This document shows, one piece after another, positions 41,698 through 63,485 of a DNA stretch of 64,000 nucleotides; the first letter of the stretch is position 1; each line of letters starts with the position of its first letter. The stretch is from assembly GCA_003220675.1 (NCBI GenBank), contig QHTD01000054.1, forward strand, positions 18,241-82,240. Direction: 5' to 3'. Below the pieces are notes generated by a model. That model searched no databases, had not been told where the DNA came from, and was given only the letters and a program-made list of their open reading frames with translations. Source of the DNA: Candidatus Rokuibacteriota bacterium. Its GTDB lineage: Bacteria > Methylomirabilota > Methylomirabilia > Rokubacteriales > CSP1-6. Position numbers and translations under genes: made by a program.

Positions 41698-42114
41698 TCA
41701 GGAAGCGGGTCGCAGCTCTTTGTGGATCCGGTCGAGGACGCCGTTGATGAAGCGGCTCGACTCCTTCGTGCCGAACTTCTTGGCGATCTCGATCGCCTCG
41801 TTGATCACGACCTTCGCCGGCACCTCGGCGGTGCAGAGGATCTCATAGACGGCCACACGCAGAATGTTGCGGTCCACGACCGCCATGCGCTCGAGGACCC
41901 AGTTCTCGGTGTACTGCTCGATCACCTGGTCGATCTTGGCCTGGTTCGTCTTCGCGCCACGGACGAGCGTCTCGGCGAACGTCCTCGCCTCGCCGGAGAG
42001 CGCATGGCGCGCCCAGAACTCCTGCTCGTGCGGGACGGGATCGTCCTCGCCCTGAAGATCGAGCTGGTAGAGGAACTGGAGAGCGACTTCCCGGGCCCTC
42101 CGGCGCGTGCCCAT
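41698..42114 (-). CDS. nusB: transcription antitermination factor NusB
   Basis: RRRAREVALQFLYQLDL... NusB fold, last gene of the rib operon as in many bacteria. Confidence 0.9.
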   Translation of the reverse strand: MGTRRRAREVALQFLYQLDLQGEDDPVPHEQEFWARHALSGEARTFAETLVRGAKTNQAKIDQVIEQYTENWVLERMAVVDRNILRVAVYEILCTAEVPAKVVINEAIEIAKKFGTKESSRFINGVLDRIHKELRPAS

Positions 42115-61143: not shown

Positions 61144-61764
61144 ATGAAAAGACTTTTCGCAGTCATCATGAGCGTGGCAGTGTTCGGCGCCCTGGCGCCT
61201 ACGGTGGACGCTCAGTCGGCCTGCCCCGAGGTTGAGCAGGCGAAGGAGATGTTCAGCAAGGTCGCCAAGGCTCAGGATGTTCAGGCGCCGCGCACGCTCG
61301 CCGGCGCTCGTCAGGACCAGCAGGCTCCGCGAAGCCAAGACGTTCAGGCGCCGCGATCGCTGGCCGGCGCTCGCAGTCAGGATGTCCAGGCTCCGCGTGG
61401 TCAGGATGTTCAGGCCCCGCGTGGTCAGGAGACGCAGGCTCCGCGTGGTCAGGATGTTCAGGCGCCGCGTGGTCAGGAGACGCAGGCTCCGCGCGGTCAG
61501 GACACCCAGGCTCCGCGTGGCAAGCAGGACGTGCAGGCTCCGCGTGGTCAGGATGTTCAGGCCCCGCGAGGTCAGGATACGCAGGCTCCGCGCGGCCAGG
61601 ATGTTCAGGCCCCGCGTAGCGGTCAGGCTGCCGGTCAGGCTATTCAGGCGCCGCATAGCAGCGACGCCGCGAAGCTGATCCGTGAGGCCGAGGCCGCGTG
61701 CAAGGCCGGCAAGATGGCTGAGGCGAAGGCGAAGGCCGAAGCCGCGATGAAGATGCTGAAGTAA
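61144..61764 (+). CDS. secreted tandem-octapeptide-repeat protein (about 13 copies of QDVQAPRG) with an amphipathic Ala/Lys-rich C-terminal helix
   Basis: SD GGGAGA lies 5 nt upstream. Signal peptide MKRLFAVIMSVAVFGALAPTVDA. The repeat block is residues 44-160 and the C-terminus is EAEAACKAGKMAEAKAKAEAAMKMLK. A strong terminator follows. Confidence 0.7.
   Translation: MKRLFAVIMSVAVFGALAPTVDAQSACPEVEQAKEMFSKVAKAQDVQAPRTLAGARQDQQAPRSQDVQAPRSLAGARSQDVQAPRGQDVQAPRGQETQAPRGQDVQAPRGQETQAPRGQDTQAPRGKQDVQAPRGQDVQAPRGQDTQAPRGQDVQAPRSGQAAGQAIQAPHSSDAAKLIREAEAACKAGKMAEAKAKAEAAMKMLK
61273..61620 (+). repeat. imperfect 24-bp tandem repeat array (coding), consensus CAGGATGTTCAGGCCCCGCGTGGT
   Basis: About 13 head-to-tail copies are visible directly. 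The variants encode QDVQAPRG, QETQAPRG and QDTQAPRG, with one 27-bp copy. There are no spacers, so it is not CRISPR. Confidence 0.8.
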
Positions 61765-61848: not shown

Positions 61849-63198
61849 ATGCGTTCCTGGATCACGGGCGCGCTCCTCCTCCTCCTTCCGGTCACCTCGA
61901 CGGCCGCCGAGATCTCCGTGCAGGAAGCCCTGCTCCGCGCGAAGCCTGCCGTCTCCCTCGTCGTCGCAGAGGTCGGCTCGGAAGTCATCGTGACCTGTGG
62001 CGGAGGCGGAGAGAAGCTCATCCGTCCGGCGCCGTTCCGCGAGACCGGGACCGGCTGGTTCATCAGCCCGAGCGGATGGATGATCACGAACGCGCACCTC
62101 GTGTCGCCTGCCAGCCAGACACCCGCGTGGGTTGCCGACCAGCAGGCGCGCAGGGCCGTGCGCGAGGCGTGCGGGGAGCTCTCGCCCCAGGCGCTCGCGG
62201 CTGCCGTCGCGAGGGCGAAAGTCAAGCTGGACCCGTCGATCTCCGTCATCCTCTCGAACGGAATCCGCCTCCCCGCCACCGTGAGCAAGTACAGTCCCCC
62301 CGTCGCGGGCGAGAGCATGTCGGGTCGTGATCTGGCGCTGCTCAAGCTCGAGGCCGTTGACATGCCCACGCTCTCGCTCGCCGATTCCTCGAACGCGCAG
62401 ATCGGCGACAAGATTCACATCCTGGGCTTCCCGGGCGTGGTGCTGAGCCACGAGCTCCTCAACGCGTCGGCCAAGGCCGAGGCGTCGGTGACGAGCGGCG
62501 CGATCTCCGGGTTCAAGCAGGACCTCAAGAACCAGCCGGTCATCCAGATCGACGCGCCGGCGGCGTGGGGCAACAGCGGCGGCCCCGCGGTGAGCTCGCA
62601 GGGCGAGGTCCTCGGCGTCCTCACGTTCGTCTCGGTCGCCGGCGGCACCGATGAAGGCGTCGTTCAGGGCTTCAACTTCGTCATCCCGTCAGCCGCGGTG
62701 CGCGAGTTCCTCAAGGGCACCGGTGTCCCCCTCGAGGAGCCGAGCCGGTTCAACGCCGCCTGGCACGCCGGCCTGCGCGCGTACTTCTCGGGCGACTACT
62801 CGCGCGCTGAGAAGTATTTCGCGGAGGCCAACCGGCTCGTCCCCGAGCTCCCCGACGTCCGTCGCATCACCGCTGAGGCGAAAAACCCGCCGCCGAAGCC
62901 GTTCCCGTGGGCGACCGTTGCAGCGGTCGTCACGGCCCTGAGCCTCGGCGCCTACGCCGGTATGTGGGGGCTCCGCTGGCGGCGCAACCGCTATCGTATC
63001 CGCCCGTCCGAGGTGGTGCGCCTGATCGAGGCATCGAAGGAGCGTCCGATCATCCTCGATGTGCGCGACGCCGCGACGTACCAGAAGAGCCCGGTCCGCA
63101 TCCCCGACTCCAAGCACATCACGCCCCAGGAGCTCGAGTCCGGCGTCACCGCGCTCAAGATCGAGCCGACCCGCACCGTTGTCGCCTACTGCACCTGA
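61849..63198 (+). CDS. membrane-anchored periplasmic trypsin-like (S1/DegP-like) serine protease fused to a cytoplasmic C-terminal rhodanese domain; the frame ends at an in-frame TGA inside the rhodanese active-site loop
   Basis: A signal peptide, the triad H (TNAHLV), D (RDLALLKL) and S (GNSGGP), a TM helix WATVAAVVTALSLGAYAGMWGL, then the rhodanese region ILDVRDAATYQ...VVAYCT followed by TGA. Confidence 0.7.
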   Translation: MRSWITGALLLLLPVTSTAAEISVQEALLRAKPAVSLVVAEVGSEVIVTCGGGGEKLIRPAPFRETGTGWFISPSGWMITNAHLVSPASQTPAWVADQQARRAVREACGELSPQALAAAVARAKVKLDPSISVILSNGIRLPATVSKYSPPVAGESMSGRDLALLKLEAVDMPTLSLADSSNAQIGDKIHILGFPGVVLSHELLNASAKAEASVTSGAISGFKQDLKNQPVIQIDAPAAWGNSGGPAVSSQGEVLGVLTFVSVAGGTDEGVVQGFNFVIPSAAVREFLKGTGVPLEEPSRFNAAWHAGLRAYFSGDYSRAEKYFAEANRLVPELPDVRRITAEAKNPPPKPFPWATVAAVVTALSLGAYAGMWGLRWRRNRYRIRPSEVVRLIEASKERPIILDVRDAATYQKSPVRIPDSKHITPQELESGVTALKIEPTRTVVAYCT

Positions 63199-63348
63199 CC
63201 GGACGAGGCGACCAGCGCCCGGGTGGCGCACAGGCTAAAGCAGCTCGGCTACCAGGACGTCAGAATCCTCAAGGGCGGCCTTGGGAGCTGGGCCAACGCC
63301 GGCCTGCCTCTCGAGGCGAAGACCTCGCCCGCCGCGTCGTCCGCTTAG
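63199..63348 (+). other. in-frame continuation after the TGA that encodes a conserved rhodanese C-terminus (PDEATSARVAHRLKQLGYQDVRILKGGLGSWANAGLPLEA...)
   Basis: Same frame as 61849-63198. It matches the rhodanese helix/GG motif region, with no stop until the TAG at 63346-63348. Confidence 0.5.
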
Positions 63349-63485
63349 CTGTTCAGCCGGCGGGCGTCTCGCACCGCGCCGTCGACGAAAGGCCCGGCGA
63401 GCAGCGTGTGCTCGTCGAAGACCGCCCGCATCTCGGGCGTCGAGAACTGGTCGCCGAAGAGCTGGTAGTCGATGACGTGGCTAGC
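63345..63485 (-). pseudogene. 47-codon N-terminal remnant of a fumarate-lyase-superfamily gene (3-carboxymuconate cycloisomerase / adenylosuccinate lyase-like)
   Basis: GTG then VASHVIDYQLFGDQFSTPEMRAVFDEHTLLAGPFVDGAVRDARR matches the family N-terminal motif LFGD..S..EMRAIFSD. The frame stops where the plus-strand stretch ends. Confidence 0.35.

What the first reader, a model, noticed from the sequence alone, without database searches (positions are those of the whole stretch)
63150..63350. In-frame TGA inside a rhodanese domain, with about 50 codons of conserved sequence continuing after it
The protease-rhodanese ORF stops at TGA (63196-63198) two codons after the rhodanese catalytic Cys, reading VVAYCT-TGA. 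The same frame then continues without a stop for 50 codons, reading PDEATSARVAHRLKQLGYQDVRILKGGLGSWANAGLPLEA. This is the canonical rhodanese C-terminal helix and GG loop, so the downstream sequence is still under a protein-coding pattern.

Four explanations fit: a very recent nonsense mutation (GGA or CGA to TGA is one step), a sequencing error, programmed stop-codon read-through, or selenocysteine.

Selenocysteine is less likely. The catalytic Cys is retained, and the stem-loop 17 nt downstream (GCGCC-CGGGU-GGCGC) is only 5 bp.
Basis: seen in the sequence. Interest (0 to 1): 0.6.

Follow-up and report, generated by a model that had tools for sequence, protein, structure and literature searches.

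The report
Conserved selenocysteine codon in protease-rhodanese gene
The "stop" inside this rhodanese domain is almost certainly a selenocysteine codon kept in every Rokubacteria relative examined, so the real product is a 499-residue membrane protease-rhodanese selenoprotein that public gene calls cut short.

Summary
TGA at 63196-63198 interrupts a rhodanese domain, and the frame stays open for 49 more codons to TAG 63346-63348.

It is not a mutation or a sequencing error. The same TGA is present in all 112 orthologous Rokuibacteriota/Methylomirabilota loci fetched (54 distinct sequences). Downstream dN/dS is 0.125 at dS about 0.8. More distant homologs (Chloroflexota, Dormibacterota, Bacteroidota) carry TGC/TGT (Cys) at that codon.

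A hairpin, GCGCC-[C/A]G[G/U]GU-GGCGC (63215-63229), starts 16 nt after the UGA. It meets every criterion of the published bacterial SECIS model. It is invariant even at three four-fold degenerate sites, while all 20 other such sites vary.

TGA ends 33 of 43 window genes, so the recoding is site-specific.

The best NCBIfam hit is NF041203 "rhodanese_LYCAU (seleno)protein", the known CxU rhodanese selenoprotein. The score (75-78 bits) is below its 115-bit cutoff, and here the domain is fused to a periplasmic trypsin-like protease through one transmembrane helix.

Verdict: a new, unannotated member or architecture of a known selenoprotein kind.

Not shown: sel genes in the same genome, and actual selenium incorporation.

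The parts
61849..63348 (+). Full selenoprotein gene. It encodes a 499-residue read-through product (449 codons, then Sec-UGA, then 49 codons, then TAG).
   Evidence: ORF and translation. Trypsin_2 plus Rhodanese; the same architecture, about 440-535 residues upstream of the TGA, in nearly all Rokuibacteriota loci.
61849..61911 (+). Predicted N-terminal signal peptide (MRSWITGALLLLLPVTSTAAE).
   Evidence: Hydrophobic N-terminus. The assignment as a signal peptide is inferred, not predicted with a dedicated tool.
62047..62619 (+). Trypsin-like serine protease domain (PF13365). Candidate triad motifs: TNAH at 62086-62097, DLALL at 62329-62343, GNSGGP at 62569-62586.
   Evidence: 87.1 bits against a cutoff of 27.6; motif coordinates. 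HtrA/DegP models score far below their cutoffs, and no PDZ domain was found.
62908..63003 (+). Single transmembrane helix (WATVAAVVTALSLGAYAGMWGL) followed by the basic stretch RWRRNRYRIR. Under the positive-inside rule this places the rhodanese domain in the cytoplasm.
   Evidence: highest Kyte-Doolittle peak at residue 357. The model of homolog P0003 shows a long helix before the domain. The topology is inferred.
63007..63297 (+). Rhodanese domain, spanning the UGA.
   Evidence: PF00581, residues 387-483; the model of a Cys homolog matches rhodanese structures (Alr3790, BH2092, 6mxv, YgaP).
63190..63198 (+). Active-site loop motif Cys-Thr-Sec (TGC ACC TGA). The Sec codon is 63196-63198, and the next base is C in all but one of the 112 loci (L121 has T), giving a UGA-C context.
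   Evidence: TGA in 112 of 112 orthologous loci; TGC/TGT in 26 distant homolog loci.
63215..63229 (+). Predicted bacterial SECIS core: a 5-bp G/C stem (63215-63219 pairing with 63225-63229) and a 5-nt loop CGGGU (63220-63224).
   Evidence: -7.6 kcal/mol; it is the only helix in the RNAalifold consensus; the stem's three four-fold degenerate sites are invariant in 54 distinct sequences while the 20 others vary; all model criteria are met.
63199..63345 (+). The 49 codons after the UGA that complete the rhodanese fold (C-terminal helix, the GG loop and the last strand).
   Evidence: dN/dS 0.125 and dS 0.80 over codons +1 to +38 in 50 distinct sequences. Of those 50 sequences, 38 (frame +1) and 12 (frame +2) carry a stop in the alternative frames.

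Best explanation
UGA 63196-63198 is a selenocysteine codon. While the mRNA is translated, the small G/C hairpin 16 nt downstream (63215-63229) acts as a bacterial SECIS. It recruits SelB carrying Sec-tRNA(Sec), which inserts Sec in competition with release factor 2, and translation continues to TAG 63346-63348.

The product is a 499-residue bitopic membrane protein. It has a signal peptide, a periplasmic trypsin-like protease domain, one transmembrane helix, and a cytoplasmic rhodanese domain. The rhodanese active-site loop reads Cys448-Thr-Sec450-Pro-Asp-Glu.

The invariant Cys most likely sits at the canonical rhodanese nucleophile position. The Sec two residues later would then act as a second, more reactive chalcogen in the same loop, for example by forming or resolving a Cys-S-Se-Sec bond or by carrying a persulfide or perselenide.

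Shown here: conservation of the TGA, Cys at the same codon in homologs, translation of the downstream frame, nucleotide-level constraint on the hairpin, and its fit to the bSECIS model. Inferred: SelB dependence, actual selenium insertion, membrane topology, and the chemistry of the CxU pair.
For: 1. TGA is at the identical codon in 32 loci from the first fetches and in 80 of 80 metagenome loci.
2. There are 26 homolog loci in Chloroflexota, Anaerolineae, Dormibacterota and Bacteroidota with TGC/TGT at that codon, and one close ortholog with Cys (L006/P0003).
3. Downstream dN/dS is 0.125 at dS 0.80.
4. The hairpin is invariant in 53 of 54 distinct sequences. The stem's three four-fold codons (GCC, GUG, GCG) have zero third-position entropy, while the 20 other four-fold columns have 0.56-1.87 bits (P about 6e-4 that the three lowest are the three stem columns). 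The loop Arg codon uses only G or U at its third base and never C.
5. The hairpin meets all four bSECIS criteria from PMC13188914.
6. The hairpin is absent or weak (weaker than -4 kcal/mol when forced into the same fold) in 24 of 26 distinct Cys/Thr homolog sequences.
7. The best NCBIfam hit is NF041203 'rhodanese-related (seleno)protein', named for its LYCAU motif, at E = 3e-22. CxU rhodanese is a catalogued selenoprotein form.
8. TGA is the ordinary stop for 33 of 43 window ORFs, so the recoding is local.
9. Methylomirabilota are reported to be rich in selenoproteins: a MAG with 63 predicted selenoprotein genes, and Sec-type group 4 hydrogenases.
Against: - No selA, selB, selC or selD was seen. 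There is no tRNA in the window, no tRNA-Sec in 30 related loci, and no sel gene among the 10 window ORFs scanned. Only 64 kb of the genome is available.
- The hairpin is minimal, and -7.6 kcal/mol is barely inside the -7.5 limit.
- The stem never varies, so it has no covariation support.
- The wider region folds no better than shuffled sequence, z = 0.36.
- No Rfam model matches.
- One Cys-form homolog (L007/L008) keeps the identical hairpin, so the hairpin is not strictly specific to the Sec form.
- In minor lineages of the same fusion family the site is Thr, Glu, Ala or 'Trp', so the residue is not universally essential.
- There are no experimental data.
Confidence: 0.85

Rival explanations
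1. Programmed or leaky read-through without selenium. A near-cognate or suppressor tRNA (inserting Trp, Cys or Arg) decodes the UGA, helped by the weak UGA-C context, and the hairpin only slows termination.
For: The frame is clearly translated past the UGA. UGA-C is known from E. coli work to be a weak termination context (my own knowledge, not tested here). The site tolerates Thr, Glu, Ala and Cys in related lineages. One database protein, P0005, reads Trp at the site, but its DNA could not be fetched. No sel genes were seen.
Against: If any residue would do, a costly stop codon should have been replaced quickly by a one-step sense mutation. Instead it persists in 112 of 112 loci at dS about 0.8. 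Homologs specifically carry Cys. The motif and the best family hit are those of a known selenoprotein. The hairpin fits the SECIS model, including its loop G[G/U] rule.
Confidence: 0.08
2. Translation really stops at the UGA. The functional product is the protease plus a truncated rhodanese stub, and the downstream 49 codons are made separately, for example from GTG 63223, or not at all.
For: All public gene callers annotate it this way (P0002, P0004, P0006-P0009, P0117, P0136). One caller called a downstream fragment as a separate ORF (P0010). A GTG-initiated 41-codon ORF exists at 63223-63348.
Against: Codons +1 to +8, which lie between the UGA and that GTG, are conserved as protein and differ by synonymous changes such as CCC/CCG/CCA/CCT and ACC/ACG/ACA/ACT. 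A rhodanese domain cut inside its active-site loop would lack its C-terminal helix and strand. Cys homologs are continuous proteins.
Confidence: 0.04
3. A recent nonsense mutation (pseudogene), or a sequencing or assembly error, at this one position.
For: TGA is one step from TGC, TGT, TGG, CGA and GGA. This is the default reading when only a single sequence is available.
Against: The TGA is identical in 112 independent loci from many assemblies and samples, including about 28 species-level MAGs. Selection on the downstream codons is strongly purifying.
Confidence: 0.01
4. Genome-wide reassignment of TGA to a sense codon (genetic code 4 or 25).
For: P0005 reads Trp at the site, which could come from a gene caller that used code 4.
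Against: 33 of 43 predicted genes in the window end at TGA. Several orthologs of this very gene end with TGA as their true stop, for example L003, L012 and L014. The genome is 71% G+C.
Confidence: 0.01

Closest known systems
NCBIfam NF041203 'rhodanese_LYCAU, rhodanese-related (seleno)protein'. [quoted passage not shown] 2026 (PMC13188914) and 'COG0607 form 2, CxU' in PMC9312934. It was first predicted by Zhang & Gladyshev 2005 (bSECISearch).
   Same: It is the best NCBIfam hit (E = 3e-22, profile positions 34-126 of 126). Both have a single rhodanese domain, Sec two residues after a Tyr-Cys (Y-C-x-U), Cys-containing homologs at the Sec site, and a UGA followed by a small in-frame hairpin.
   Different: The score is 74.6-78.5 bits against a curated cutoff of 115, so the protein is not an equivalog by NCBI's rule. 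NF041203 models a stand-alone protein of about 126 residues. Here the domain is the cytoplasmic C-terminus of a 499-residue signal peptide/protease/TM fusion. None of the CxC relatives tested reaches the cutoff either, so this gene belongs to the wider CxC/CxU-P-[DN]-E rhodanese clade rather than to the narrow curated family.
Other rhodanese selenoproteins: forms 1, 2 and 4 (UxxS, UxxG) and TsoB (NF045694, UxxxxU).
   Same: Each has a rhodanese fold with Sec in or at the active-site loop, and all were predicted from Sec/Cys pairs.
   Different: In those forms Sec replaces the nucleophile itself. Here the canonical Cys is kept and Sec is an additional residue at +2. The TsoB model scores only 20-24 bits against a cutoff of 805.
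E. coli fdhF-type bacterial SECIS and the general bSECIS model.
   Same: The element lies inside the coding region just after the UGA. It has a short G/C stem and a small apical loop with G followed by G or U, and the loop starts 21 nt after the UGA (allowed range 16-37).
   Different: It is much shorter than the fdhF element: 15 nt, 5 bp, no conserved lower stem and no bulged U. SelB binding has not been tested.
GOS 'trypsin-like serine protease' and 'MucD-like' selenoproteins (PMC2398784).
   Same: These are serine-protease-containing proteins that were predicted to be selenoproteins.
   Different: In them the Sec lies inside the trypsin domain or in a CxxU thioredoxin-like module. Here the protease domain has no Sec, and the Sec is in a fused rhodanese domain.
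Membrane-anchored rhodaneses such as E. coli YgaP, and the Na+/H+ exchanger-rhodanese fusions of Anaerolineae.
   Same: A cytoplasmic single-domain rhodanese is tethered to a membrane protein. YgaP is among the structural matches. The Anaerolineae fusions carry the same Y-C-T-C-P-D-E loop.
   Different: Those proteins use Cys only and have different membrane partners.

Membership tests
Bacterial selenoprotein gene (Sec-UGA with in-frame bSECIS) | In-frame UGA conserved among orthologs | tested here: met
   TGA in 112 of 112 Rokuibacteriota/Methylomirabilota loci, 54 distinct sequences.
Bacterial selenoprotein gene (Sec-UGA with in-frame bSECIS) | Homologs carry Cys at the aligned codon | tested here: met
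   TGC/TGT in 26 homolog loci and in ortholog L006. Many CxC-P-[DN]-E representatives were also found.
Bacterial selenoprotein gene (Sec-UGA with in-frame bSECIS) | Protein-level conservation on both sides of the UGA | tested here: met
   dN/dS is 0.125 downstream and 0.48 for the 13 codons upstream. Pfam Rhodanese spans the UGA.
Bacterial selenoprotein gene (Sec-UGA with in-frame bSECIS) | bSECIS consensus: 4-16 bp stem, 3-9 nt loop, G in the first two loop positions (usually G[G/U]), 16-37 nt from the UGA to the loop, MFE of -7.5 or lower | tested here: met
   5 bp stem; 5 nt loop [C/A]G[G/U]GU; 21 nt spacing; -7.6 kcal/mol, or -8.7 in the AGU-loop variants. The energy is borderline.
Bacterial selenoprotein gene (Sec-UGA with in-frame bSECIS) | RNA structure supported by compensatory changes | tested here: inconclusive
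   All five pairs are invariant, so there is no covariation. Indirect support comes from the invariance of the stem's synonymous sites.
Bacterial selenoprotein gene (Sec-UGA with in-frame bSECIS) | selA, selB, selC (tRNA-Sec) and selD present in the same genome | not testable with these tools
   There is no tRNA in the window, no tRNA-Sec in 30 related loci, and no sel gene among 10 window ORFs. Only 64 kb of the genome is held. Literature reports Sec use in the phylum.
Bacterial selenoprotein gene (Sec-UGA with in-frame bSECIS) | Selenium shown in the protein | not testable with these tools
   This needs mass spectrometry or 75Se labelling.
NCBIfam NF041203 rhodanese_LYCAU | HMM score at or above the curated cutoff of 115 bits | tested here: not met
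   74.6 bits for the full protein and 78.5 bits for the domain alone, each with Cys substituted for Sec.
NCBIfam NF041203 rhodanese_LYCAU | Y-C-x-U motif in the active-site loop | tested here: met
   The window reads A-Y-C-T-U. That the U of the family name aligns with this codon is inferred from the family name and the CxU listing. The residue-level HMM alignment was not shown.
NCBIfam NF041203 rhodanese_LYCAU | Stand-alone protein of about 126 residues | tested here: not met
   The product is a 499-residue protease/TM/rhodanese fusion. Profile positions 1-33 are unmatched.
Pfam PF00581 Rhodanese | HMM score above the gathering threshold, and the rhodanese fold | tested here: met
   48.2 bits against 22.2. 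The model of Cys homolog P0003 matches rhodanese structures at Foldseek probability 1.00.
Pfam PF13365 Trypsin_2 (S1-type serine peptidase) | HMM score above the gathering threshold, and His/Asp/Ser motifs | tested here: met
   87.1 bits against 27.6. The motifs TNAH, DLALL and GNSGGP are present. Which residues form the triad is inferred from the motifs.
HtrA/DegP/DegS family | Family HMM cutoff and PDZ domain(s) | tested here: not met
   TIGR02037 scores 68 bits against 416, and no PDZ hit was found.

The most novel reading that the evidence does not exclude
The Sec-containing cytoplasmic rhodanese domain may be a redox, sulfane-sulfur or selenium sensor that controls the periplasmic protease across the membrane. 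That would be a previously undescribed selenoprotein-gated proteolytic signalling module specific to Rokubacteria. The same Y-C-T-C-P-D-E module attached to Na+/H+ exchangers in Anaerolineae would be its Cys counterpart, regulating other membrane machines.
Probability: 0.12. Interest if true: 0.65.

Novelty: new member of a known kind. Interest (0 to 1): 0.4.

Why it matters
Every public gene call for this protein stops at the UGA, or miscalls the tail as a separate ORF, so the family is invisible as a selenoprotein in current annotation.

Recognising it does three things:
- It adds a phylum-wide conserved selenoprotein to Rokuibacteriota/Methylomirabilota, a soil and groundwater lineage already suspected of very large selenoproteomes.
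- It extends the CxU rhodanese selenoprotein type to a new architecture, a membrane-tethered fusion to a periplasmic serine protease.
- It provides a very compact 15-nt candidate SECIS with clear synonymous-site constraint, which would be useful for training selenoprotein predictors.

It does not reveal a new recoding mechanism.

Tried and rejected
- Thermodynamic folding of 63190-63270 gave z = 0.36 against shuffles, so stability of the wider region is uninformative.
- Rfam gave no hits at gathering thresholds on the whole window, and only noise at E up to 10 on 63150-63350.
- RNAalifold and pair counting on 29 sequences found no extended lower stem and no covariation.
- The tRNA-Sec search of the window and 30 related loci found only tRNA-Ala.
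- A Pfam scan of 10 window ORFs of the sizes expected for SelA, SelB or SelD found housekeeping genes only.
- A GC3-based scan for other Sec-type TGAs found nothing convincing in the window or in 395 kb of Rokuibacteriota flanks.
- The DNA of P0005 ('Trp' at the site) was unavailable, and no fetched locus encodes it. TGG and a code-4 gene call therefore cannot be told apart.
- It remains uncertain which residue is the canonical nucleophile. A pairwise phmmer alignment to 6mxv puts the Sec site on the catalytic Cys. The profile alignment, the model of a Cys homolog and the invariance of the first Cys favour the upstream Cys. I adopted the latter with moderate confidence.
- The window translation with its stop could not be submitted for alignment or structure prediction, and 'U' was rejected by hmmscan. 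Cys substitution and the Cys homolog P0003 were used instead.
- Literature searches for Rokubacteria with selenocysteine and for a protease-rhodanese selenoprotein fusion found no prior description.
Full report
**1. The observation**

The + strand ORF 61849-63198 encodes 449 residues and ends ...TRTVVAYCT-TGA, with the TGA at 63196-63198. The same frame runs on for 49 sense codons (PDEATSARVAHRLKQLGYQDVRILKGGLGSWANAGLPLEAKTSPAASSA) to TAG 63346-63348.

With the stop replaced by Cys, Pfam finds two domains:
- Trypsin_2 at residues 67-257 (87 bits).
- Rhodanese at residues 387-483 (48 bits), which runs straight across the stop at residue 450.

The hairpin GCGCC-CGGGU-GGCGC is at 63215-63229. Its stem begins 16 nt after the UGA and its loop begins 21 nt after it.

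**2. Not an error, a pseudogene or a reassigned codon**

A first protein search returned six independent metagenome proteins, 62-96% identical, that all end at ...VVAYC[T/S]. One more starts just after that point. Full-length relatives have Cys, Thr or Trp at the site.

DNA for these proteins, a scan of one genome per species and a metagenome scan together gave 112 orthologous loci. Nearly all are labelled Candidatus Rokuibacteriota, Methylomirabilota or Methylomirabilia. Every one has TGA at this codon.

Over the 38 codons after the TGA, 50 distinct sequences give dS = 0.80 and dN/dS = 0.125. Of those 50, 38 (frame +1) and 12 (frame +2) carry a stop in the two other frames. The tail is therefore translated and under purifying selection, and the TGA has been kept through a great deal of synonymous divergence.

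TGA is also the normal stop for 33 of the 43 predicted genes in the window, and for several orthologs of this gene itself. The genetic code is standard and the recoding is site-specific.

**3. Why selenocysteine**

More distant homologs have TGC or TGT at exactly this codon, in the same loop Y-C-T-C-P-D-E (26 loci). They include Na+/H+ exchanger-rhodanese fusions in Anaerolineae and stand-alone rhodaneses in Chloroflexota, Dormibacterota, a Bacteroidota MAG and unassigned metagenome contigs. An exhaustive profile search shows that the C-x-C-P-[DN]-E rhodanese loop is widespread. A conserved UGA paired with Cys in homologs is the standard signature used to predict selenoproteins (PMC13188914).

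The best NCBIfam match for the domain is NF041203 'rhodanese_LYCAU, rhodanese-related (seleno)protein' at E = 3e-22. [quoted passage not shown] The 2022 review lists the same form as COG0607 form 2. The window reads A-Y-C-T-U.

**4. The SECIS candidate**

The published bacterial SECIS model requires four things:
- a 4-16 bp upper stem;
- a 3-9 nt apical loop;
- a G in the first two loop positions, usually followed by G or U;
- 16-37 nt between the UGA and the loop, with an MFE of -7.5 kcal/mol or lower.

The hairpin here has 5 G/C pairs, a 5-nt loop [C/A]-G-[G/U]-G-U, 21 nt spacing and an energy of -7.6 kcal/mol, or -8.7 in the AGU-loop variants.

RNAalifold on 29 sequences keeps only this helix. 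All five pairs are invariant, so there is no covariation. The region as a whole folds no better than shuffled sequence, and Rfam has no match.

The positive evidence is constraint at synonymous sites. Among 54 distinct sequences there are 23 columns with a conserved four-fold degenerate codon. Exactly three of them never vary, and they are the three in the stem arms (GCC at +7, GUG at +9, GCG at +10). The other 20 have 0.56-1.87 bits of entropy (an earlier version is). The chance that the three lowest columns are those three is about 6e-4. The loop Arg codon (+8) uses only CGG, CGU or AGU and never CGC, although CGC is the commonest Arg codon at position -8. That is what the loop G[G/U] rule predicts.

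In Cys and Thr homologs the hairpin is absent or weak. The exception is L007/L008, a stand-alone Cys form that keeps the identical 15 nt. It could be a SECIS relic or a precursor. A recent hydrogenase study discusses the same phenomenon.

**5. What the protein is**

The read-through product has 499 residues, arranged as follows:
- a hydrophobic N-terminus (residues 1-21);
- a trypsin-like domain with the TNAH, DLALL and GNSGGP motifs;
- a helical linker;
- one transmembrane segment (residues 354-375) followed by RWRRNRYRIR;
- the rhodanese domain.

By the positive-inside rule the protease faces the periplasm and the rhodanese domain faces the cytoplasm. This topology is inferred. The architecture is conserved in nearly all Rokuibacteriota loci that have enough upstream sequence.

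Which residue is the canonical rhodanese nucleophile is not fully settled. A pairwise alignment to 6mxv puts the Sec position on the catalytic Cys. The profile alignment puts the upstream Cys there. An AlphaFold model of the Cys ortholog P0003 (mean pLDDT 72) ends the central strand at Tyr, makes the first Cys the first loop residue and places the Sec-equivalent Cys at +2. The first Cys is invariant in all homologs, whereas the Sec site is Cys, Thr, Glu, Ala or 'Trp' in minor lineages of the same fusion family.

I therefore take Cys448 as the nucleophile and Sec450 as a second redox-active residue in the same loop. The chemistry, whether a selenenylsulfide or a persulfide/perselenide relay, is inference.

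**6. Relation to what is known**

The gene works like, and is closest to, the catalogued CxU rhodanese selenoprotein. It fails that family's curated cutoff (75-78 bits against 115). So do all the CxC relatives tested. Its fusion architecture also differs from the stand-alone 126-residue model. I file it as a new member or architecture of a known selenoprotein kind, not as an NF041203 equivalog.

The 'trypsin-like' and 'MucD' selenoproteins of the GOS study have Sec in other domains. Searches of the held literature found no description of this fusion, or of selenoproteins specifically in Rokubacteria. Methylomirabilota are, however, reported to include a MAG with 63 predicted selenoprotein genes and Sec-type hydrogenases.

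**7. What is missing**

No Sec machinery was seen. The window has no tRNA gene. Thirty related loci have only tRNA-Ala. Ten candidate window ORFs are housekeeping genes. No other Sec-type TGA turned up in the window or in 395 kb of related flanks. With 64 kb of a multi-megabase genome, this is absence of data rather than evidence against Sec.

Selenium incorporation, SelB binding and function are all untested. Plain read-through (about 8%) and termination with a split product (about 4%) remain as minor rivals. Mutation, sequencing error and code reassignment are excluded.

Noticed in passing
window 63349-63480 (- strand): In-frame remnant of purB (adenylosuccinate lyase). About 27 N-terminal codons (SHVIDYQLFGDQFSTPEMRAVFDEHT) are joined directly to about 17 C-terminal codons (LLAGPFVDGAVRDARRLNS). 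About 1.2 kb present in L001 (1909-3116) is missing. L003 and L004 also run straight from the rhodanese gene to the HIT gene.
   Followed up: partly
window 61144-61764 (+ strand): A secreted 206-residue protein lies immediately upstream. It has about 14 tandem octapeptide repeats (Q-D-V-Q-A-P-R-G and variants) between a signal peptide and a Lys/Ala-rich C-terminal helix. Its function is unknown.
   Followed up: no
L007 2885 / L008 555: A stand-alone Cys-form rhodanese (TGC), next to a DsbA gene, keeps the exact 15-nt hairpin GCGCCCGGGUGGCGC and the peptide SARVAH. It could be a SECIS fossil after a Sec-to-Cys reversion, or a pre-existing hairpin that made the Cys-to-Sec switch easier.
   Followed up: partly
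L037-L047 (e.g. L037 8735-10339): The Anaerolineae, Chloroflexota and Bacteroidota Cys homologs are Na+/H+ exchanger (PF00999)-rhodanese fusions with the same Y-C-T-C-P-D-E loop. This rhodanese module is evidently attached repeatedly to the cytoplasmic end of different membrane proteins.
   Followed up: partly
P0001/L009, P0003/L006, P0005, P0017, P0018: Within the protease-fusion family the Sec site is Thr (ACG), Cys (TGC), 'Trp', Glu or Ala in minor lineages, while the upstream Cys never changes. The DNA for the 'Trp' form could not be fetched, so it may be a TGA translated under genetic code 4.
   Followed up: partly
P0002, P0004, P0006-P0010, P0117, P0136: All database gene calls for the Sec form are truncated at the UGA. 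P0010 is a spurious ORF that starts in the tail and runs on into downstream DNA. This is a systematic annotation gap.
   Followed up: yes
L015 8876-10360; L020; L090 about 2238: Ortholog L015 reads GNNGGP where the window has GNSGGP, so the protease serine may be lost. L020 reads GVSGAP. L090 has a single hairpin-breaking change, GCG to CCG (Ala to Pro), seen in only one contig.
   Followed up: no
window 41698-41700 (- strand): This is the only other place where a coding signal continues through an in-frame TGA. It is the stop of a 138-residue ORF whose N-terminus resembles NusB (my reading of the sequence; not scanned). It is followed two codons later by the GTG start of an ORF with a DxHG-type metallophosphoesterase motif. 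It is an ordinary gene boundary, not recoding.
   Followed up: partly
L001 356-1704: In this contig the protease-rhodanese gene is called as two overlapping ORFs (356-1099 and 1096-1704), which suggests a frameshift or an assembly error in the protease part.
   Followed up: no
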